A stretch of DNA of 62,699 nucleotides, filler included, from Kipferlia bialata (taxonomy: Eukaryota): the NCBI GenBank assembly GCA_003568945.1. It is 6 parts of 6 records of this genome, joined end to end, with 100 filler letters (N's around TTAATTAATTAA, not from the genome) between each part and the next. Parts side by side here need not be neighbours in the genome. Positions count along the whole stretch, not along the records: positions 52,798 to 58,069 come from BDIP01001004.1; 5 more parts are not named here. The stretch is one strand, 5' to 3'. Shown here piece after piece: positions 9,861 to 58,254 of the stretch. The notes under the pieces are model-generated. The model ran no database searches and was not told the origin of the DNA. It worked only from the letters and a program-made list of their open reading frames with translations. Positions within the stretch are counted from its first letter, which is position 1; each line of letters opens with the position of its first letter. Position numbers and translations under genes: made by a program.

Positions 9861-10669
9861 GAGTTCTTCATCGTTCCCAGACCCTCTGCCCGGGGTGACA
9901 ACCCATGGGACAAGTATGTGCTGGGGGGGTGCAAGACTAAGCTGTTCTCAAGGTGAGCATACCACTATTTGTGTACGCTAGTGCTATAGTCCAGGTGTCT
10001 TACGTTTCTCATCATTCTCCACATCTCTCTCAATCATTAGGATGGAGCAGCTAGTCATCTTTTCCAATGTATTATTAGTGATACGTGTAGCATGTGTGTC
10101 TTTACCCCAGAAAGGAGCAGCTAGCCATCCTGACCGATATATATGATGATTGTTTATTTTACTATACTATGTACTTCGATACATAGAATCATATATACAT
10201 ATAATCTAACAAACATATATATGTATACTCTAACCATAAGGAAGGAGCAGCTGGCCATCCTGACCCTGGGCAAGAGCCTCTCATTCCTGAGGGATGCACA
10301 GGACCATCAGTACAAGGTATATATACACTATAAGTATATATATATATATATATATATATGGTGTATATATATTCATATGTATATGTGTGTTTGTATTTAT
10401 GAGCCTTTCTTTCCTCAGAGATGCACAGGACCACCAGTACAAGGTATATATGCATGCACACACTATACTCTATATATGTATATATATTCATGTGTGTATG
10501 TACAAAGATTGGTGTGATAATATACACAGGACCACCAGTACAAGGTATATGTATTCATAGTAAAAATGTATTTCCAATACATACCAGATTCATCTCGCTG
10601 TCTCCCTCTCTGTCCATAGATGTAGCCCGTCTTACAGCAGCTCCCCCGCCCCCTCCTCTCTGAGAAACG

Positions 10670-10702
<33 letters not shown>

Positions 10703-10824
10703 AACTATATTAGTTTACGTCTCGTCTCACCCCAGCTCCCCCGCCCCCTGCTGTCTGAGGCACGTCTTGCAGGGGCATTCACAGTTGACAAGGCAGAGCC
10801 AGAGAGGGTGGCAAGGTGGGATAG

Positions 10825-10867
<43 letters not shown>

Positions 10868-11072
10868 ATCACAGTGGACAAGGCAGAGCCAGAGAGGGTG
10901 GCTAGGAACACTTGTATATTTCTCTCTCTCTCTCTCATACTCATTCTTTCCTCTCTCCTTGACGTGTCGCCAAATACTATTGTCTGTATACACTCTTCAT
11001 ATACAATGTGTATTACTGTGCATTGATACTGATACCAGCCGTGTCATGCCCTTTGTGGACGTGGCCTACAGA

Positions 11073-11109
<37 letters not shown>

Positions 11110-26328: not shown

Positions 26329-26372
26329 NNNNNNNNNNNNNNNNNNNNNNNNNNNNNNNNNNNNNNNNNNNN

Positions 26373-26384
26373 TTAATTAATTAA
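26373..26384. other. Artificial contig linker TTAATTAATTAA
   Basis: Identical N-flanked spacer. Confidence 0.95.
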
Positions 26385-26847
26385 NNNNNNNNNNNNNNNN
26401 NNNNNNNNNNNNNNNNNNNNNNNNNNNNAGAGAAATAGGTATGTTAAAGATGTGTGTATCCCCCCCCCCCCCCCCACACTCATACACACATCACCTACAC
26501 ATTTCTCTAACCGCTATCTCATAACATCGATACCTGTCACACGTGATACATATTCACTGCATTGTACTCCTCAATTATTCTAGTGCATCATACAGACTTT
26601 GGATACCATTCTCTCTCTCTCTCGCCCCCCCCTCCCCTCTCTGCGTTGACACTTATGTCTCCCCATTCTTGAGTATGTATGAGTATGTATGAGTATGTAT
26701 CCTCCATATCTGTATGCGAGTTATACATTCGCATTCACAAGAACAGCTTCGAAGTCCTGCCACTGCTGAAGTATATTGAGTGTTGTTCTTTGACCTAATT
26801 CACACCTGTTTCAACCGATAACAAATCAACTGTTCTGACACCAGAAT

Positions 26848-27945
26848 ATGTCTTGTCCTCTGGCAATGGAAGAGGCAGAACAGCTCGAATACGTGAGACT
26901 GGATTCGCCTCCAGACGAGACTCTCAGGGGCGCTGTGCCTTGTGGGGATGGACAACTTGTTGGCTTAGACAGCGCGAGAGATGTGTGGATCTTCAGACTT
27001 GTAGAGCTTGAAGAGGAGAGTGGTATTGCCATGGAAGAGAGGTATGTTTGTACCAGTGAGAGAGTGGCCTCCTTTCAGGCTGTCCCAGGCCGATCATGCA
27101 AGTGGCAGTTTGGGTGTGTAGGAGGGCGTGTATTCTTCTACTCGACGTCACACCGTTTCCTGGCCATATTGGCTCTTGACAACATGACTTGGACCTTTCA
27201 GCCAGGTCTGTCGTTGCCTGGGATAGGGAAGGTCGAGTGTCTGTGTGACATCAGTTATGCGATGCTGGGAGGGCACTTTGTTATCATGGGACTTATCCAC
27301 AATGCGGAGACTTTTCAGCCACGAGATGAGAGATCCATGTGGAGCCTTGACACTGACAGTGACCCTGAAGACTTGGCTTTCACTCCCATTCAATGTGTGG
27401 TCCCGGATGCCGTGAGTTTGGGCGGAGACTATGGGCAATTTGCGCCCAGTGGTGATACCGGATACGCCCTAGATGACGAGAGAAGAATATGGTCTTTCTC
27501 CCTGTCTGAGGGTTGGTCACGGCAAAGCACTAAGGGAGTCGGTGACTCGGCATATCTGTTTGAACGCTTCATCCAAGTAGGCCGATTTGTCGCTGTTGCC
27601 GAAGTGAAAGTATATGATTTGGAGGGATGTGGGTATTCTCGCCAGTGCTTCATCGCATTCGACACTATCTCTGGCACATGGAGGCTATGGGACGTCTCAC
27701 GTCCGGAGCGGTTCGACTTCCTAAACGTATTCCCTTCCATTGGAGTGTTGGCCTCCGGCAGTGGGTCGTGCTATCTAGTGCCGGTCAACATGGAGTATGA
27801 GTACCCTGACTTTTCTCTTAAGTGGGCGACAGATCCCTCTTCCACTGAGACTGGGGCATTACTAGCACCAGCTGAGTGGCTGTGGGGGGACGAATCCCTC
27901 TCACAGACAGACACTTCCCAGGATTCGGAGTCAGAATCGGACTAA
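26848..27945 (+). CDS. Intronless hypothetical beta-rich (kelch/beta-propeller-like) protein
   Basis: 365-aa ORF with W-terminated beta repeats and an acidic tail; clear paralog of 31998-33098. Confidence 0.75.
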   Translation: MSCPLAMEEAEQLEYVRLDSPPDETLRGAVPCGDGQLVGLDSARDVWIFRLVELEEESGIAMEERYVCTSERVASFQAVPGRSCKWQFGCVGGRVFFYSTSHRFLAILALDNMTWTFQPGLSLPGIGKVECLCDISYAMLGGHFVIMGLIHNAETFQPRDERSMWSLDTDSDPEDLAFTPIQCVVPDAVSLGGDYGQFAPSGDTGYALDDERRIWSFSLSEGWSRQSTKGVGDSAYLFERFIQVGRFVAVAEVKVYDLEGCGYSRQCFIAFDTISGTWRLWDVSRPERFDFLNVFPSIGVLASGSGSCYLVPVNMEYEYPDFSLKWATDPSSTETGALLAPAEWLWGDESLSQTDTSQDSESESD

Positions 27946-29450: not shown

Positions 29451-31730
29451 TTATATATTCATTTTGTCTTCTCTGACATAGGTCATGACCACCCTTGACT
29501 CCCTGAGGGTGAACTCCAGCCTCTTGAACGACAAGGAACAGCACGCAGCACACAAGTATCTCTTTGAGAACCAGGTATCCATTCTCTGTTCAAATGTGGT
29601 ATTCAAACCCCAGTACTATCAACATATCGGGAGATTGAGCTTCACCTCTCTTTCAGCGACTGTTGAGATATGTTGAAGCCATACCACACTCTGTCATTGG
29701 AGTTCAGTGTGCACTAGCATCATTTTATTGATTGTATGTGCCATACCATCTATACCATCTGTACCATCTATTTCCTATACACTCAGGCTGTGCTGTACAA
29801 TGATGCTACCCAGCATGCTGTCACTATATTACAGTATACATTAGCATGTTCGTATTAACAATGTGTCCTTTAGATACTACTTTCTACCCCGTAGGCTGTG
29901 TTGTACAATGACGCCACCCACAATGTCACTAGACCTCCCGACACCCCTCCCTCTCTCTCCCCCTCTATCTCTCTCTCCCCCCCCTCTCCCTCTCTCTCCC
30001 TTACATCCAGGCCGTGCTGTACAATGATGCCACCCACAATGTCTGTTGCATCATTATATTGATTGTATTGATCATATCATATGTCATTAACCATCTGTTT
30101 CCTCTACCTTTAGGCTGTGCTGTACAATGACGCCACCCAACAATATGTCACTCTATTACAGTTTACATTAGCATGTTCGTGTTAACAATGTGTGCTTTAG
30201 ATTCTAGTTTCTACCCCTTAGGCTGTGCTGTACAATGACGCCACCCACAATGTCACCAGAGACGACATCGAGCAGACAGTAATGGATATAGGTGAATACT
30301 ATATATGTGTATTGTATATATATTGTATATATATTGTTATATATACATGTATGTGACCAGAGACGACATCGAGCAGACGGTGATGGACATAGGTGAGTAA
30401 TATTGTGTTTGCATATATATATATATATATAAATGTATATTCATATATGTGTGTGTGTATACTGTATGTCTATTGATATATATATATATATATATATGTA
30501 TGTGACCAGAGACGACAAATTGAGGAGACGGTCATGGACATAGTTGAGTACGATACTGTACACACACACAACGACACTATAGTGTCACTCCCAGTCTATG
30601 TTTGATATGCGTATCACTCTCTCAACCCCAGTCTGTGCCACCCCTGAGATATCATATATTATATATGTGTTTGAATATATGTATATATATATCATATATC
30701 ATATATATACACACAATCTCTCACCCCCAGTCTGTGCCACCCCCGAGATATCTGACACTGTATACTATACCGTATTAAAACTACACATACTATATAAATA
30801 CTATATATGTATATATCTCACCCCCAGTCTGTGCCACCCCCGAGATATCTGAGACTGTCTGCACTGCCCTGCACAATGGCTTTGCAGACACAGAGAGTGA
30901 CACACGGAGTGTGTGGAAGGTACACATACATACATACAAATATTTATATATATATATGTGTGTGTGTGTGTCAGCTGCCGGACACTGTCAAAACCACCTA
31001 TACACACTCTGTATCCACTTTGTGGTCACTGTATGCTCTACTACTATGTGTCTGTGAGCACGATGTATCCGGTACCTACCCATTCACTATACAGCCACAT
31101 AATGTACCCTATATACCGTGTCCCTAATGTCTTACCCCCAGTACAGCTGTGAGCACGGCGTGTCTGGCACCCCCACCACCCATGTCAACGGGGTGGCATT
31201 CCAGGCACCATTCTACTGGGGAGTGGAGGTGAGCACTCCATATACTACTATATTCGTATGTATACCCTCTCTGTGTCTGTGGGGTCATCATTCTACTGGG
31301 GTATAGAGGTACTCACATATATATATATATACATCTATATACCTATCAATACTCTCTCCCTGTGTCAACGGGGTGGCATTCAAGGCGCCATTCTACTGTG
31401 GTGTGGAGGTGAGTACTCTGTATACTAGGATTACTATATACGTATGTATACCCTCTCTTTGTCTATGGGGTCGCCATCACTCTACTGGGGTGTAGAGGTG
31501 GGTACTCGTACACACACACATATAAACACATATATATATATGTGTATTTACAATATGTATACTAATTGATACCCACTATACTCTGTCGAGCTGATGGCAT
31601 TGCATTGGGGAGTTGAGATATGAGTATACTACCTTGCACATTATTGCTCTATAGATACATCACTCACATCCAGGAGTGGACCAACTTCCTGCTGGGTCTC
31701 CTGGACACACCATACTCTGTGGACTTGTAG
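28476..31730 (+). CDS. Secreted thioredoxin-fold DsbA-like protein, multi-exon
   Basis: Signal peptide MRVLTLCCLALVCVALG; LEVFGDYTCDAT (single Cys); PFSLPYH; K/YSCEHGVSGTPTTHVNG (cis-Pro GTP motif); ends PYSVDL*. Confidence 0.75.
29780..30550 (+). repeat. Echo arrays around one DsbA-like exon (4 upstream exon-start copies, 2 downstream exon-end copies)
   Basis: AG|GCYGTGYTGTACAATGAYGCYACCCA repeated; GTGACCAGAGACGAC…ATGGACATAG repeated. Confidence 0.9.
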
Positions 31731-31997: not shown

Positions 31998-33098
31998 CTA
32001 GGCCACAAACGAGGACGAATCCGAATCAGACCCAGACTCTTCCGTGTCAGACTCATCGAGTGCAGACTCGATCCTCTGAATCTCAGAGAGTGATGGGTCC
32101 CTAGCCCACTCTTGGGAGGAGTCCGGGTACTCACACTCAGGTCTAATGTGTGGGATGTAGAGGTATGTGCCGGTTTGCAAAGAGTCGGTCAGGGCAAGTA
32201 CACCTCCATCTGGAAACACAATTTGGAGGTCGGGACAATATGAGGATGCCATACCCCAGACTCTCCACTTCCTGGTGATTGTATCGAAAGCGAAATAGCT
32301 TGGACGGTTCGATCTGTCATCTCTCCAAGAAATGTACACAGGACCAGCAGCAAGGAATCGACCCACTTGCAGGAATGTATCTGGTTGTCCAGAACAGTAC
32401 CTAGGAACCCCCTCTTGTTCTAGCTCACACCACCCATCAGCCATAGAGAACGACCACATGTGCGCCTCGCTGTCATGAATGCAGTACAGTGTATCACCAA
32501 CAACACAGTGGTGACGCACTCGTAGTCCAGTAGGTGTGTCACAGGGCACATCTCTTAGTACCCAGTCCTCTCCGTGGATATCGAAGTACCACAGAAGAGT
32601 CTTAGTCGTCCAAGTACCATAGACCCAACCGCTAATAGTTTCGGTGACTATGAGTACTAGGGCCTCTCCGACAACGGCACATGTCAAGTGTCCATCATAG
32701 TCCAACTTCTGCAAACCAACCGTTGTGCTCCACTCCATACTGTCCAGAGCTAGCGTGGCCAAACAGCCCCATCGGGCCGAGTAGAAGAAGGCAGTCTCTC
32801 GGTTACAGTCAAACACCCACTGGCGCCTGTTGAATACTTCCATCTGGGGAATACTCGGAAAGGACGCTACCTTCTCACCCTTGCACTCGTATCTCTCACT
32901 GCCTGTCTCTTCCCCACTCCCCTCTTCAATTTCGACTAGGCTGAATACCCACACAACTCCATCATCGTCTAGGCCTAGGAGTTGTCTTGCACCACAAGGT
33001 ACAGCACCATTGAGTGTATCTTTGTCACACTCGACTGATAGCCTCACGTAGTCAAATGGATCTGGCTCCATTGTTCCAGGTACATCGTCCATACCCAC
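31998..33098 (-). CDS. Intronless hypothetical beta-rich (kelch-like) protein, paralog of 26848-27945
   Basis: 366-aa ORF sharing YVRL, GAVPCG, QLxGLD, ERYxC, QVGRF, AFDTI, EYPD and an acidic tail with the plus-strand copy. Confidence 0.75.
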   Translation of the reverse strand: MGMDDVPGTMEPDPFDYVRLSVECDKDTLNGAVPCGARQLLGLDDDGVVWVFSLVEIEEGSGEETGSERYECKGEKVASFPSIPQMEVFNRRQWVFDCNRETAFFYSARWGCLATLALDSMEWSTTVGLQKLDYDGHLTCAVVGEALVLIVTETISGWVYGTWTTKTLLWYFDIHGEDWVLRDVPCDTPTGLRVRHHCVVGDTLYCIHDSEAHMWSFSMADGWCELEQEGVPRYCSGQPDTFLQVGRFLAAGPVYISWRDDRSNRPSYFAFDTITRKWRVWGMASSYCPDLQIVFPDGGVLALTDSLQTGTYLYIPHIRPECEYPDSSQEWARDPSLSEIQRIESALDESDTEESGSDSDSSSFVA

Positions 33099-34227
33099 AG
33101 TAGCAGACTAGGGGTGAGACACAAAGATGCACACATGAAATTATGTGTAGGTAAGGACAATGCTATACAATAATGTATCAGATCTGAGGGTTGGGGATGG
33201 GGGGTTGGGGATGGGGGGGGGGGGGGGGGGGGAAGAGTGGTCGGGNNNNNNNNNNNNNNNNNNNNNNNNNNNNNNNNNNNNNNNNNNNNNNNNNNNNNNN
33301 NNNNNNNNNNNNNNNNNNNNNNNNNNNNNNNNNNNNNNNNNNNNNNNNNNNNNNNNNNNNNNNNNNNNNNNNNNNNNNNNNNNNNNNNNNNNNNNNNNNN
33401 NNNNNNNNNNNNNNNNNNNNNNNNNNNNNNNNNNNNNNNNNNNNNNNNNNNNNNNNNNNNNNNNNNNNNNNNNNNNNNNNNNNNNNNNNNNNNNNNNNNN
33501 NNNNNNNNNNNNNNNNNNNNNNNNNNNNNNNNNNNNNNNNNNNNNNNNNNNNNNNNNNNNNNNNNNNNNNNNNNNNNNNNNNNNNNNNNNNNNNNNNNNN
33601 NNNNNNNNNNNNNNNNNNNNNNNNNNNNNNNNNNNNNNNNNNNNNNNNNNNNNNNNNNNNNNNNNNNNNNNNNNNNNNNNNNNNNNNNNNNNNNNNNNNN
33701 NNNNNNNNNNNNNNNNNNNNNNNNNNNNNNNNNNNNNNNNNNNNNNNNNNNNNNNNNNNNNNNNNNNNNNNNNNNNNNNNNNNNNNNNNNNNNNNNNNNN
33801 NNNNNNNNNNNNNNNNNNNNNNNNNNNNNNNNNNNNNNNNNNNNNNNNNNNNNNNNNNNNNNNNNNNNNNNNNNNNNNNNNNNNNNNNNNNNNNNNNNNN
33901 NNNNNNNNNNNNNNNNNNNNNNNNNNNNNNNNNNNNNNNNNNNNNNNNNNNNNNNNNNNNNNNNNNNNNNNNNNNNNNNNNNNNNNNNNNNNNNNNNNNN
34001 NNNNNNNNNNNNNNNNNNNNNNNNNNNNNNNNNNNNNNNNNNNNNNNNNNNNNNNNNNNNNNNNNNNNNNNNNNNNNNNNNNNNNNNNNNNNNNNNNNNN
34101 NNNNNNNNNNNNNNNNNNNCTGGCATTTCTGCATAGTGTGACCCCATTACCCCACCCCTTGTCTGTGCCCCCCCCCCCCCCCTCCTTCCCGTGCCATCTC
34201 TCACCCATGTCTGGACCTCCATTCCAG

Positions 34228-39519: not shown

Positions 39520-39563
39520 NNNNNNNNNNNNNNNNNNNNNNNNNNNNNNNNNNNNNNNNNNNN

Positions 39564-39575
39564 TTAATTAATTAA
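39564..39575. other. Artificial contig linker TTAATTAATTAA
   Basis: Identical N-flanked spacer. Confidence 0.95.
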
Positions 39576-40388
39576 NNNNNNNNNNNNNNNNNNNNNNNNN
39601 NNNNNNNNNNNNNNNNNNNTAGGAGGAGATATATATATATAGACAGAGAGAGAGAGGATGGGTGAAGAGAGGAGCTTGGATTCTACCGCTATGTGTATAT
39701 ATTTAAGGAAGAGAGTGGGGGGTACACCATACGAATGGACAAACTAGATATATATGCTATTGCGTGTGTTCGTGTGTATATACATATGGCAGTCAGATAT
39801 GCCAATATGTGGATCATACCACTTACTTACATCCCACAGACATGTGTGACAGTATACTAGACACCTTACTCCACATATACCTGTATACATACACATGATC
39901 CACTTCTGACACTTATCGTTTACATCAGTGTCACTCTAATCAATCAACATCAGTACATGTGTCTCCAGTCACTGTATGCACCAACGCAGACACACCTTGA
40001 CCACAGCAATCAGGGGCGTGATGCCATTGATAACTGACTCCGACATAGGCAGTGTATGTGCCTACGGGACGTTGACGTGGAGAGACAACACGAACGATTG
40101 AGGAGACCGAATCGGGATAAACCCTTCGGTCAAAAACAGACTAATCACAACAAAAACTGTCAAAAGGGTTAGAAGCTTGCTCAAGTGACTCTGCAAAACC
40201 TGCCTTCTAACAACCTAGTGTACACAGTTACACAGGTTGTGGGTATCTAGATAGAGCCACACAGACCACACACCAGCACTGAGCAGCTGTGGGTGCTGGA
40301 GTGGAGCACTGGCGGTGTCAGATTGTGTCCTGTGAGTCCAAGTGACCCATATAGACTATAGAGTATAGACCCAGTGCCTTCTGTCTAG

Positions 40389-52697: not shown

Positions 52698-52741
52698 NNN
52701 NNNNNNNNNNNNNNNNNNNNNNNNNNNNNNNNNNNNNNNNN

Positions 52742-52753
52742 TTAATTAATTAA
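52742..52753. other. Artificial contig linker TTAATTAATTAA
   Basis: Identical N-flanked spacer. Confidence 0.95.
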
Positions 52754-52899
52754 NNNNNNNNNNNNNNNNNNNNNNNNNNNNNNNNNNNNNNNNNNNNGGG
52801 GGGTTATGGGGTAGAGAGAGAGGGGAAGAGAGGTAGGGGGCAGGGGGGAAGACATAGAGAGAGAGACAGATAGAGAAAGGGAGATATGTGTATTCATAC

Positions 52900-53530
52900 C
52901 TATCAGCGGGGTGTGGGTATGGGTAGCCACTGTACACCTCGTCACAGACCAGGTCCCACAGCACACTAGTCTCAGATAGTCCATCACAGGTCCTAGATGG
53001 TCCTAGCACCCTAGCAGCTACTGGAAGTACCAGCCCAGCCACGCTAGGGGGCAGGGTGTGGATACCCTTGAGATAGGCTGTGACAACATCAGACGGAGAG
53101 GGCTCAGTTGACTCTGAGAGACTGGAGGGACTAGAGGGACTACGGGGACTTCTCGAGACTTCAGGAGTGTTCCAGAGTGCCAGCAATGGGTGGGGTGGGG
53201 TCTTGTCCCTGTGTGTCAACAAACAAATATCGAGTACATATACAAGAGAACCCTCAGATACATATAGAGTTATACTGTGTCACCTGGTATTAATGTTCAA
53301 ATGAATACATAGGTGTGTACCTGAAGCAGTGTGCGGCCAGACTACTCCTCAGAGAGTATATCGAGTATAGTAAACAGTACTTACTCATATACATACATAC
53401 TACGTCACTAGGTATTGATGCTCCGTGTGTGAATGAAGATACTATGTCACTAGGTGTGAATACATATGTGTACCTGAAGCAGTGTGCGGCCAGACTACTC
53501 CTCAGGGGCTCAACCAGCACAGAGGCCATG
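52900..53530 (-). CDS. Hypothetical protein fragment (at least 2 exons)
   Basis: MASVLVEPLRSSLAAHCF ends at CAG|GTAC; a second long open exon DKTPPHPLLALW…YPHPADR ends at a GTATG donor. Confidence 0.4.
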
Positions 53531-53789
53531 CCCCACACACTCTCTCTCTCTCTGTCTCCCTCTTTGAACTAACTGTCTCTCCCTATCCTCCCTCTGTCGT
53601 CCAGTCAGCTGCCCAACTACCCGTTACCAGTACAACTGGCTCTGGAGTCAGCACAGATACCCTACTGCACCTACACTCTGCTTATAAAAGAGGTGCTAGG
53701 CTAGTTTGTACTCATATATATGTGTTCTGAAGAAGGGTGTAGCTCTTTTTGTGCCTTGATAGCTCTTCCTGTCTTCTCCTCGATGACCC

Positions 53790-55372
53790 ATGGAGGAAGA
53801 CTCTGACGAGGATGTGTTTATAACCAAGCAGGAGTGCAAAATGTATGCCAAGTACATGATAGCAGTGGGGTGAGTTGATGTTTATATATGAGATATTCTA
53901 ACAGTGTATCCTTGTCTCACTGCCAGGCACCGTTGCTGGAGAGTGCTATCTTTCATGGGTCTTCCCGATGGCCTAGTGATGACTGAGGAACAGAAACTGA
54001 AGTCTTTCATCTCTCTGAGGTTGGGCATGGGTCTGCAGATGAGATGTTCAAGGTATGGAGCACTGTATAAAGTAGATATATAGTATATATAGTATATATA
54101 GTATATATAGTATATAGTGTATATTCATAGTGGGGATGGGTCTGCAGATGAGATGTTCAAGGTATGTGTAATATATGGTATATGAAGTATACATGTGGTA
54201 TATATAGTATATAGTGTATATATATAGTATCTATCTCTCAGGATGGGAATGGGTCTGCAGAGAAGGTGTTCACGGTTTGTGTCATGTGCTATAGTTCAAT
54301 GGATATATGTATTGTATATTGTGCAAAGATTTTTATAGTGGAAATGGTGCATGGAAGGTGTTCATGGTATGTATCACGTGCGAATATTATACTCTTAGTA
54401 GATATAGTATGGGTAGCACATCGTATATATATACAGTAGAGATATTTGATACACTGGACGTATATCATGCATGTATACTCTATATCTGGAGAGGAAGTGT
54501 ACAAGAGAATTAACCAAATATGAGCCTCTTTGTTTGTGTTCTCTCTCTCTCTCTCCCTCTCTCTCTCTCCCAGCTCTCAGCTCGGTCGTGATTCTTTTGT
54601 CATTTATATAATATATATATATAATATATATATATAATATATATTGTATTGTGTACCACTATTTATTATTGTTTATATACAATATAGTATTGTATATTGT
54701 ATTATATATATCGCATGTGGCTGTCTCTATACTTCTTCTGTATTCCTCCTCACCCAAGCGCGAAGTGGGGAGCCCTTGACTATGGAGCTATAAAGCATGG
54801 GTATATGCCAAAGGTACTGTAGTCAATACAATAGTATTTCATAATTATAATGGACAATACATTAGTTTTACATACATGTAATTTTACTAGATACAACTGC
54901 TCTCTTTAGTAGTATATATGTGTGTGTGTTTATCTAGTTGCATGCATAACTCTGAGAGGTTTCCAACCATACACTATAAATGGGGTATTCTTCCATGCCA
55001 AGTAGGTCTTTACAAGTGTCCGAATTGTACATATATATATATCCTTATCAGTGTCGTCACTGTTTATGTATTATGTCTAGTTAAATCCTCTCTCTCTCTG
55101 GGTCATCTTTTCGTTGTACTATTCTCTCTCTCCCTCTTGCTCACTTGGAAACTTCCTCGGAGTCTTATGTTCGTATGGGCTCCCAGATCTTCTCTCTCTC
55201 TCTCTCCCTCTTGTTAATTCCTTAGGAATTCTCCGAGGTGTTCTATGCTAATGTTCGAAAGTATGGGCCGCCAGATCCATCCGATCGGCTGACAGAACTT
55301 AAGCAGTGGAGGCGCCTCTACAAGCCACTTCTTCCATTACTCAAACTGGCGCTCCATAACAACTTCATCTAG
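53790..55372 (+). CDS. Small hypothetical protein (4 exons), copy A of an inverted paralog pair
   Basis: MEEDSDEDVFITKQECKMYAKYMIAVG/HRCWRVLSFM…GLQMRCS/AKWGALDYGAIKHGYMPK/EFSE…DPSDRLTELKQWRRLYKPLLP…*; exon-for-exon match to copy B. Confidence 0.8.
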
Positions 55373-55967: not shown

Positions 55968-57471
55968 CTAATAGTAGTTGTTCTCTAGAGCCAGTATAAG
56001 ATATGGAAGAAGTGGCTTGTAGATGCGCCTCCACTGCTTAAGCTCTGTCAGACGGTCGGACGGATCGGGATGTCCATACTTACGAAAACAACCATAGAAC
56101 TCAGAGGAAAATTCCTAAGGAGTCAGGGGGGGGGGGAGAGAGAGAGAGAGACGGGATATAGTACGAGACACATTCATTATCGACACGGAGAGAGTACCAA
56201 AATAGGAATACCTCTTTATGAATTACAAAAACCAACACAATGATACAGTCAACAAGAAGAGGGTACCAAAGTATATTTATAGATACTGAACACAGGGATG
56301 GAAGAATAGCACATACGTAGAGGAATGACACATACCTACAAGGTATGGAAGTATACACTACTCTTAACTGAGATATTCTTGAACACACATATATGAGAAT
56401 ACCTTCGGAAGATACCCATACTTCACAGCACCACAATCGAGAGCTCCCCACTTTGCTCTGTGGTAAGAGAACATAACATAATAATATAATAAGAGAACAT
56501 GGAAGTACAGATACAGTAACCATGGTATTACATGACGAAATACTGACAGCACCAGTAGACATACGACTGCGGTGAGAGTTGAGAGAGTGACGGGTAGTAC
56601 ATGAGGCTCGTACCCCCTCCCCTCCCCCCCCCCTTGTCCTGAGAATGCTGTCAAAAGTAGTAATGAAGGCTCAAATTGAAGGAAATGCCCATGGTAGAAT
56701 AGAGCAACACACAGTGTACACTTCCACCCCCAGATATAGTATACATATATATGAGTGTTACACTTCAAGTATCGATACATCTGAAGTCTCTAACTGCTGA
56801 AAACAAAATATTATTATACATTATACATTAACAATATACTATATAGCACTACACGTACGGTGAACACCTTCTCTGCAGACCAATCCCCATCTTGAGAGAG
56901 ACCAGAGACCTCACTTTCTGTTCCCTAGTCATCACTATGCCATCGTCAAGATCCATGAAAGATAGCACCCTCCAGCAACGGTGCCTGGGAGTGAGATAGG
57001 CATACAATGGAACAATATACTGAAAAGGCAAATTGAGGCACAAACACATATATAGACATAAATGTATCCAAAAATAGTACAGACAGCAACCACATACTGA
57101 TAAAATACTATGTATCCAACACGCTGTAGCCCAAGTGAATGGCAGGGAGACATGCATTCAAGATCTAGATGTAAATACCATATCCATACTATCAATGATA
57201 CATGGTACAATGATACAGTTAAGTAAAAATATTCCATCCCAGCCGATGCGTAGGAAGATACTGTACACACTCAGATCATACTAGTATAGAGATCATACTA
57301 GTATAGAGATGAAGCTATGTGTTGAAGAATGACAAAATGTAGTAGCAAATATGTATCAGAACTCATATATGTAGAGAGTATCTTTACTCACCCCACTGCT
57401 ATCATGTACTTGGCATATATGTCGCACTCCTGCTTGGTTATAAACACCTCTTCGTCAGAGTCTTCGTCCAT
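55968..57471 (-). CDS. Small hypothetical protein (4 exons), copy B of an inverted paralog pair
   Basis: MDEDSDEEVFITKQECDIYAKYMIAVG/HRCWRVLSFM…GLQRRCS/AKWGALDCGAVKYGYLPK/EFSS…DPSDRLTELKQWRRIYKPLLP…*; same intron positions as copy A. Confidence 0.8.
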
Positions 57472-58062: not shown

Positions 58063-58113
58063 ACCCCCCNNNNNNNNNNNNNNNNNNNNNNNNNNNNNNN
58101 NNNNNNNNNNNNN

Positions 58114-58125
58114 TTAATTAATTAA
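58114..58125. other. Artificial contig linker TTAATTAATTAA
   Basis: Identical N-flanked spacer. Confidence 0.95.
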
Positions 58126-58254
58126 NNNNNNNNNNNNNNNNNNNNNNNNNNNNNNNNNNNNNNNNNNNNGAGGGGGAGGAGGAGGGGGGGGGGGGGGGGG
58201 GGGGAGGGGGGGGGGGGGGGGGGGGGATGATGGTGACAATGGACACTCTCGTAC

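What the first reader, a model, noticed from the sequence alone, without database searches (positions are those of the whole stretch)
54012..54375. A distal echo preserves the ancestral exon state shared with the paralog
Seen: local exon end TCTCTGAGGTTGGGCATGGGTCTGCAGATGAGATGTTCAAG|GT. The nearest echo (~54132) is almost identical. The second echo (~54234) reads TCTCTCAGGATGGGAATGGGTCTGCAGAGAAGGTGTTCACG|GT and matches the inverted paralog (TCTCTCAAGATGGGGATTGGTCTGCAGAGAAGGTGTTCACC|GT, ~56858-56898) at CTC, ATG, AGA AGG and CAC. A third echo (~54340-54370) is more decayed. Inference: here echoes are age-ordered outward from the exon and act as a fossil record of earlier exon versions. This also argues against a simple assembly artefact.
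Basis: partly seen in the sequence, partly recalled or inferred. Interest (0 to 1): 0.85.

Follow-up and report, generated by a model that had tools for sequence, protein, structure and literature searches.

The report
Old exon ends stacked inside introns
In the protist Kipferlia bialata, three copies of an exon's end sit in the following intron and one matches the neighbouring sister gene better than its own exon; such copies differ from their exons mostly at silent positions, so they are likely pieces of once-working gene versions, only loosely ordered by age.

Summary
Observation confirmed. The locus is a Kipferlia bialata orphan gene pair (A = KIPB_004629, B = KIPB_004630). Three copies of A's second-exon end plus donor lie in the next intron; RNA contigs splice past them. 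Over 41 nt, echo 2 sides with B at 6 sites and with A at 3; echo 3 shares the B state at 3 of them, so these are most likely ancestral bases. Mis-assembly is unlikely; copying from B is not excluded. In 28 other arrays of the window, divergence rises with rank (41 concordant, 18 discordant, 15 tied; p=0.007), but only 12 are monotone, so age order is a tendency. Passive fossilisation does not fit: exon-versus-echo differences are 5.9 times commoner at silent than at amino-acid-changing sites (a dead copy predicts at most 2), and identity collapses just past GT/AG. Echoes therefore likely coded for protein in a diverged allele or homolog until shortly before being placed in tandem. Echoes occur in 40 of 58 modelled introns. 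The scan noted similar echoes earlier in sea-urchin genes, with a weaker silent bias.

The parts
53790..53869 (+). Gene A (KIPB_004629) coding exon 1
   Evidence: Joined exons translate to P0001 exactly; X3 contig joins it to the next exon
53927..54052 (+). Gene A coding exon 2; its last 41 nt are the source of the echoes; live donor at 54053
   Evidence: X2 and X3 contigs end at 54052 and continue with exon 3 letters
54053..54130 (+). Spacer 1: live donor plus AT-rich sequence with a 9-nt microsatellite
54131..54161 (+). Echo 1: 31 nt, 1 difference from the live exon, followed by GT
54162..54233 (+). Spacer 2, similar to spacer 1 in its 3' half
   Evidence: 7 substitutions in 64 aligned columns, several gaps
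54234..54274 (+). Echo 2: 41 nt, open in the exon frame, 37/41 identical to paralog B and 34/41 to exon A; 22-nt exact run shared with B
54275..54338 (+). Spacer 3, whose first 15 nt resemble the intron start after echo 3 and B's intron start
54339..54366 (+). Echo 3: 28 nt, decayed (3-nt deletion), keeps the B/E2 state at sites 29, 30, 33
54367..54758 (+). Rest of the intron (392 nt), the likely original intron; first about 140 nt collinear with B's 401-nt intron
   Evidence: local alignment p=0.004; lengths and blocks; whole-length global score not above the shuffle maximum
54759..54813 (+). Gene A coding exon 3
55226..55372 (+). Gene A coding exon 4 with stop
56859..56984 (-). Paralog B (KIPB_004630) coding exon 2; no echo in the intron after it
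   Evidence: B-type RNA contig in X2
55968..57471 (-). Paralog B, whole coding span (exons 57471-57392, 56984-56859, 56457-56403, 56114-55968), convergent with A
   Evidence: Joined exons translate to P0002 exactly; 76% protein identity to A

Best explanation
Echo 2 is a copy of the exon end plus splice donor that lies in the intron and is skipped in the assembled RNA, and it likely keeps the bases shared with the sister gene because it was still a working exon end, in an earlier version or another allele of the gene, until shortly before it was placed there. Shown: three tandem units of exon end + GT + 64-78 nt spacer in gene A only; use of the first donor; a strong silent-site bias and a sharp loss of identity past GT/AG in the window's other arrays. 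Inferred: each unit arises when repair synthesis copies about 100 nt across a splice junction from a homologous template (a sister chromatid, or an allele already diverged about 15-20% at silent sites) and rejoins without homology at its other end, leaving two exon ends in tandem; the one attached to the exon body is used, the other becomes intronic and only then starts to decay. New units form mostly next to the exon, which gives a loose outward age order that multi-unit duplications and copying from different alleles scramble. Which of the two copies is the incoming one cannot be told from these data.
For: Focal: site table and tree; E2 reads as an intact peptide intermediate between A and B; A's intron minus the three units is 392 nt against B's 401; RNA contigs of two studies use the first donor. 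Window (28 arrays, 75 echoes, five stop-free gene models): differences at 4-fold sites 84 of 406 against 53 of 1518 at 0-fold sites, ratio 5.9 (bootstrap over arrays 4.1-8.7), the same direction in all 5 genes and for all four bases; echo-versus-echo ratio 3.5 (2.1-5.2). Next to the junction, exon side 23 of 290 events against intron side 108 of 290, intron greater in 27 of 29 arrays; unrelated introns 46%, A-B orthologous introns 21 of 60. GT/AG intact in 69 of 78 echoes. Non-synonymous decay rises with rank (15/681, 25/610, 24/437; p=0.011). Metamonads are reported to lack canonical NHEJ and to rely on HR (PMC8516963, passages).
Against: No diverged donor allele was seen: DNA contigs laid on exon 2 show only A and B letters, so the required allelic diversity is assumed. 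Intron flanks are more diverged (37%) than silent sites (16% for rank 1), more than the model predicts. In 8 of 27 arrays adjacent spacers are clearly homologous and in several of these decay is even across the unit, which is plain tandem duplication. At the focal locus E1 fits recent simple duplication (p=0.13). The family has no outgroup, so sites 6, 10 and 40 are polarised by parsimony only. One window, arrays curated by hand.
Confidence: 0.45

Rival explanations
1. Simple tandem duplication at the exon, then passive decay, strictly age-ordered: echo 2 was frozen before six substitutions hit the live exon.
For: Rank trend p=0.007; adjacent-pair distance rises outward 46/14/14, p=0.0003; focal order 1, 7, 8 differences; gene A is weakly constrained, dN/dS 0.38, so a run of exon changes is possible.
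Against: Silent/replacement ratio 5.9 where this model allows at most 2; intron flanks far more diverged than exon parts; shared states not nested (4 of 18, 4.6 by chance); focal clock test p=0.001-0.06 (post hoc).
Confidence: 0.17
2. Echo 2 was copied or gene-converted from the inverted paralog B, 2.6 kb away, so its B-likeness is borrowed, not inherited.
For: 22-nt exact run shared by E2 and B; the topology joining E2 with B is not rejected (AU p=0.21) and a clock model favours conversion by 1.2-6.5 fold after allowing for E3 (4-75 fold before allowing for it).
Against: No site joins E2 with B to the exclusion of E3, and site 15 joins E2 with E3; three A-locus states (8, 18, 41) are interleaved with the six B-like ones; spacer 3 is no closer to B's intron than the other spacers. 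Even if true, sites 29, 30, 33 stay ancestral by E3.
Confidence: 0.22
3. Echoes are under present-day selection for coding: as minor alternative exons (E2 contains a 33-nt in-frame AG...GT segment) or as spare exon ends swapped in when repair deletes the sequence between exon end and echo.
For: Silent bias, few indels (4 in 2358 nt) and kept GT/AG also fit present selection; E2 segment 54242-54274 is 33 nt and in frame.
Against: RNA contigs skip the echoes here and at one other locus (contigs show the main form only); E2 lacks the branch-like motif found in 36 of 41 real introns and has a GTT donor seen in 1 of 41; echoes have no excess of a second splice site (donor type 2 of 35 against 11 of 70 controls; acceptor type 11 of 43 against 21 of 86); 2 stop-creating changes among echo differences.
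Confidence: 0.13
4. Assembly artefact: alleles or reads of A and B were stitched in tandem.
Against: The longest exact word shared by any two copies is 31 nt, and 22 nt for E2 and B; E2 carries a base found in neither A nor B; X1 shows no third version of the first 85 nt of exon 2, and an X1 contig stops at 54056, exactly where the 31-nt exon/E1 word ends; contig depths over A and B are alike (390-444).
Confidence: 0.03

Closest known systems
Human F7 intron 7 37-bp VNTR with silent 5' pseudo-sites (PMC1557585; abstract and outline seen)
   Same: The first unit spans the exon-intron border, downstream copies carry donor sites, and the most upstream donor is used.
   Different: F7 is one minisatellite of near-identical 37-nt units; here units are about 100 nt (60-193), few (2-5 echoes), occur at both donors and acceptors in 40 of 58 modelled introns, and their intron parts are strongly diverged.
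Intron gain by tandem genomic duplication (review PMC3443670; passages seen)
   Same: A short local duplication involving exon sequence and a splice signal.
   Different: No new intron is created: A and B share the same three intron positions; the existing intron only grows.
One-sided invasion / SDSA and MMBIR template switching (PMC9299229 and PMC4888836; passages seen; in the latter one-sided invasion appears only as a reference title)
   Same: Synthesis primed by homology at one end and rejoined otherwise at the other would give the unit structure proposed here.
   Different: Described there for gene targeting and rearrangements, not as a genome-wide source of intronic exon-end copies; the link is my inference.
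Dinoflagellate relict spliced leaders (search listing only; the age-ordered decay is recalled, not read)
   Same: Stacked copies of a gene-end motif read as a record of past events.
   Different: Those come from reinsertion of spliced cDNA; here no echo runs on into the neighbouring exon (best 7 of 12 matches among 71 echoes) and the GT/AG is kept.

Membership tests
Junction-spanning repeat with silent pseudo-donors (F7 IVS7 type) | First unit spans the exon-intron border | tested here: met
Junction-spanning repeat with silent pseudo-donors (F7 IVS7 type) | mRNA uses the most upstream donor | tested here: met
   X2 and X3 contigs, main form only
Junction-spanning repeat with silent pseudo-donors (F7 IVS7 type) | Near-identical units along their whole length (minisatellite) | tested here: not met
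   Intron side 108 of 290 events against exon side 23 of 290
Junction-spanning repeat with silent pseudo-donors (F7 IVS7 type) | Copy number varies between individuals | not testable with these tools
   No second isolate's DNA
Intron gain by tandem genomic duplication | The duplication creates a new spliced intron | tested here: not met
   Same three coding introns in A and B; echoes lie inside one intron
Dead tandem duplicate decaying neutrally | Silent/replacement divergence from the live exon at most 2 | tested here: not met
   5.9, bootstrap 4.1-8.7; measured on 28 other arrays, not on the focal one
Dead tandem duplicate decaying neutrally | Divergence rises with distance from the exon | tested here: inconclusive
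   Trend p=0.007 but 12 of 28 monotone
Ectopic gene conversion from paralog B | A contiguous tract sharing B-derived states, excluding the local copies | tested here: inconclusive
   22-nt exact run, but no site groups E2 with B against E3; AU p=0.21
Cassette micro-exon | Acceptor with branch motif, usual donor, in frame | tested here: not met
   In frame and AG present, branch-like motif absent, GTT donor
Cassette micro-exon | Inclusion in mRNA | tested here: inconclusive
   Main contigs skip it; minor forms cannot be seen in contigs
One-sided homologous repair from a diverged allele | A donor allele matching the echo and its intron flank exists | not testable with these tools
   No whole genome held; only A and B letters in X1 over exon 2

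The most novel reading that the evidence does not exclude
Kipferlia bialata builds much of its intron length by serially stacking working exon ends from diverged alleles: a repair process in a lineage without NHEJ copies about 100 nt across splice junctions between homologs, so most introns hold an archive of past coding alleles from which substitution order and lost allelic diversity can be read in a single genome.
Probability: 0.35. Interest if true: 0.8.

Novelty: new variant of a known kind. Interest (0 to 1): 0.62.

Why it matters
Copies of splice junctions inside introns are known as rare oddities. Here they are the rule in several genes, and they carry a protein-level selection signal that a dead copy should not have. 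If this holds genome-wide, it identifies how introns grow in the intron-rich fornicate (124,912 introns, PMC5874029), gives thousands of natural tests of first-donor / last-acceptor choice in a reduced spliceosome (87 of 174 proteins found, PMC6679479), points to exchange between diverged homologs in a protist whose sexual life I found nothing on, and lets substitutions be polarised for orphan genes that have no outgroup. It also warns that echo rank is not a safe clock.

Tried and rejected
No whole genome is held, so the genome-wide test was replaced by a window-wide one. Outgroup search failed: exon query found only P0001, P0001 found only itself and P0002, HMMER over 1.84 billion representatives found only P0001, no Pfam family for 2 of 2 proteins. 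No listed run is on record as RNA ('no RNA holder listed'; X2 and X3 are guessed RNA, though their contigs are spliced). Contigs were laid only on 52810-54070; the echoes themselves were not covered. Spliced-RNA template: rejected as far as tested, no echo continues into the neighbouring exon. Base-composition cause of the silent bias: rejected, the excess holds for A, C, G and T. Junction-adjacent bases as cause: ratio 5.4 after dropping 3 nt next to the junction. Whole-intron global alignment of A (after E3) with B was not above the shuffle maximum (98.5 against max 112.5); only the first 140 nt and the length support collinearity. The gapped spacer measure was too permissive (unrelated introns scored 0.31) and was replaced. 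No tRNA in the window. Paper searches for a prior description and term look-ups in PMC5874029 ('duplicat' 0 hits) and PMC9860276 ('Kipferlia' 0 hits) found none for this species; the library lacks most subscription journals and I read no supplements.

Full report
Setting. The window is a string of scaffolds separated by N linkers. The exon in question encodes part of a 135-residue protein that the database labels KIPB_004629 of Kipferlia bialata, a free-living fornicate; its convergent inverted neighbour is KIPB_004630, 76% identical. Four coding exons each, joined by coordinates, reproduce both proteins exactly. A and B differ at 72 of 408 coding bases, dS 0.41, dN/dS 0.38. They have no other relative in either protein search and no Pfam match, so there is no outgroup.

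Observation. It is as described. Against the live exon end, E1 differs at 1 of 31 sites, E2 at 7 of 41, E3 at 8 of 28 plus a 3-nt deletion. E2 differs from B at only 4 of 41. E2 sides with B at six sites, with A at three interleaved sites, and is different from both at site 15, where it agrees with E3. E3 has the B/E2 base at sites 29, 30 and 33 and a third base at site 40; it does not cover sites 6 and 10. A maximum-likelihood tree separates exon+E1 from E2+E3+B with 98% support; grouping exon A with B against the echoes is rejected (AU p=1e-5); the three arrangements of E2, E3 and B cannot be told apart (AU p 0.79, 0.21, 0.09).

The echoes are intronic and specific to A. Contigs of X2 and X3 (guessed RNA, two studies) stop at 54052 and continue with exon 3; X2 also holds a spliced B contig. 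A's intron is 706 nt; after E3 392 nt remain, against 401 nt for B's intron, and their first 140 nt align in order (p=0.004), although the full-length alignment is not significant. So the three units were most likely added in A after the gene duplication. Mis-assembly is unlikely: no two copies share an exact word longer than 31 nt, an X1 contig ends exactly where that word ends, and X1 shows no third version of the upstream part of the exon.

Is rank an age order? A self-comparison listed 158 local repeat pairs. From these I curated by hand 29 arrays with two or more echoes (13 donor, 16 acceptor; 78 echoes; one partial copy beside an N gap dropped; single-echo sites not used in the rank tests). 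The live copy was confirmed by stop-free gene models: a 31-exon ABCA transporter, a gamma-tubulin-complex-like gene, and three others (gene names are my reading of the translations; the last exon of one model and the first of another were dropped because their borders were unsure). Without the focal array, farther echoes are more diverged in 41 pairs, less in 18, tied in 15 (permutation p=0.007); donors alone p=0.09, acceptors p=0.03; only 12 of 28 arrays are monotone and the nearest echo is strictly closest in 11 of 28. Neighbour-to-neighbour distance also rises outward (46/14/14, p=0.0003). But states shared by some echoes are nested outward in only 4 of 18 cases, 4.6 expected by chance (one multi-allelic row of 19 left out), and some repeats cover two units at once. 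Rank is a tendency, not a clock.

Are they a record of other exon versions? Yes. Where two or more echoes share a base that differs from the exon, 28 of 30 differences are synonymous (11 of 11 where all echoes agree); among single-echo differences 42 of 96; chance gives 24-29%.

But not passive fossils. If only the live exon were protected, silent sites would diverge at most twice as fast as replacement sites (the null used in earlier scan note e1-9861148, which prompted this test). Observed: 84 of 406 at 4-fold sites against 53 of 1518 at 0-fold sites, ratio 5.9 (bootstrap over arrays 4.1-8.7), in all five genes and for each base; between echoes, neither of which codes now, 89 of 383 against 95 of 1421, ratio 3.5 (2.1-5.2) (one search gives 4.6-6.0 by site counting). 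Identity also breaks at the splice site: 88-97% on the exon side, GT/AG kept in 69 of 78 echoes, then close to the level of unrelated introns within about 7-13 nt. Conversion from the live exon resets the age of a site but keeps the ratio at 2 (argument, not simulated). The echo's replacement sites must therefore have been protected while its silent sites and intron flank diverged: either it coded for protein in another lineage until recently, or it is selected now. Present use as an exon has no support. Replacement differences, which should count time since becoming intronic, rise with rank (p=0.011).

The focal locus in that light. Under passive freezing the coding exon would have taken 6-7 changes while dead E2 took 0-1 (binomial p 0.001-0.06, post hoc). 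If E2 was a working exon end until recently, its intact and near-ancestral state is expected. Copying from B explains it about as well on rates (likelihood ratio 1.2-6.5 after allowing for E3) but has no site in its favour. This gene is too weakly constrained and the stretch too short to decide; the window-wide signal was measured on other arrays and is carried over by inference.

Mechanism, inferred. Units have a median spacing of 101 nt and exon parts of 10-55 nt. Repair synthesis of about 100 nt that is primed by homology and rejoined without it would give such units; only those crossing a splice site leave the reading frame intact. A sister template gives identical units (8 of 27 arrays have clearly homologous spacers); a diverged allele gives the silent bias and foreign flank. 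Metamonads are reported to lack Ku-dependent end joining (PMC8516963, passages). No such allele was seen here.

Prevalence. An 18-nt junction word recurs in the adjacent intron in 40 of 58 introns of seven gene models, five of which were modelled because they had echoes; controls: 3 of 1160 foreign introns and 1 of 116 wrong-end words. Introns with echoes have a median of 346 nt, those without 113.5. No such repeats were found in 0-8, 24-28, 32-40 and 56-62 kb, so density varies between genes.

Comparison and verdict. It works like the F7 intron 7 pseudo-donor array (PMC1557585, abstract) but is not a minisatellite, and it is not intron gain by tandem duplication (PMC3443670, passages). My nine searches found no description in this species. 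The finding is real and its fossil reading is right in spirit; strict age order and passive preservation are not. New variant of a known kind; interest 0.62, mostly for the window-wide selection signal.

Noticed in passing
window 13237-23167: A 31-exon ABCA-type transporter model is open in one frame; 21 of its 30 introns carry echoes, one array with five (17517-18197).
   Followed up: yes
window 10241-12853: Gamma-tubulin-complex-like gene (name from my reading of the translation), 5 of 6 modelled introns with echoes; cut by a scaffold linker at 13125.
   Followed up: partly
window 53302-53352 and 53457-53505 (minus strand): Single donor echo in a hexosaminidase-like gene; an X2 contig skips 53208-53472, confirming that this echo is intronic.
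   Followed up: partly
window 53660 and 53783: An X2 contig runs on for at least 255 letters beyond 53660, and an X3 contig has 26 letters before 53783, that fit nothing in the laid stretch; possible distant 5' exons or chimeric contigs.
   Followed up: no
window 54480-54503 and about 56715-56735: A short block of about 20 nt is better kept between the A and B introns than its surroundings.
   Followed up: no
window 16385-16477: Two identical 38-nt stretches flank a 13-N gap; probably an assembly overlap, so that copy was left out of the counts.
   Followed up: partly
window 29717-30260, 31183-31499, 19403-19761: Repeats that cover two or more echo units at once (83-85% identity), showing block duplications within arrays.
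   Followed up: partly
window 26839-27945 (+) and 31998-33107 (-): Two long intron-free ORFs of about 368 aa that look like paralogs of one another by eye; no local repeats in them.
   Followed up: no
window 53870-53926 versus 56985-57391: The first coding intron is 57 nt in A and 407 nt in B, with no echo detected in either.
   Followed up: no
window 13125-13224, 26329-26428, 39520-39619, 52698-52797, 58070-58169: 100-nt linkers of N with a 12-nt core mark scaffold joins or gaps.
   Followed up: partly
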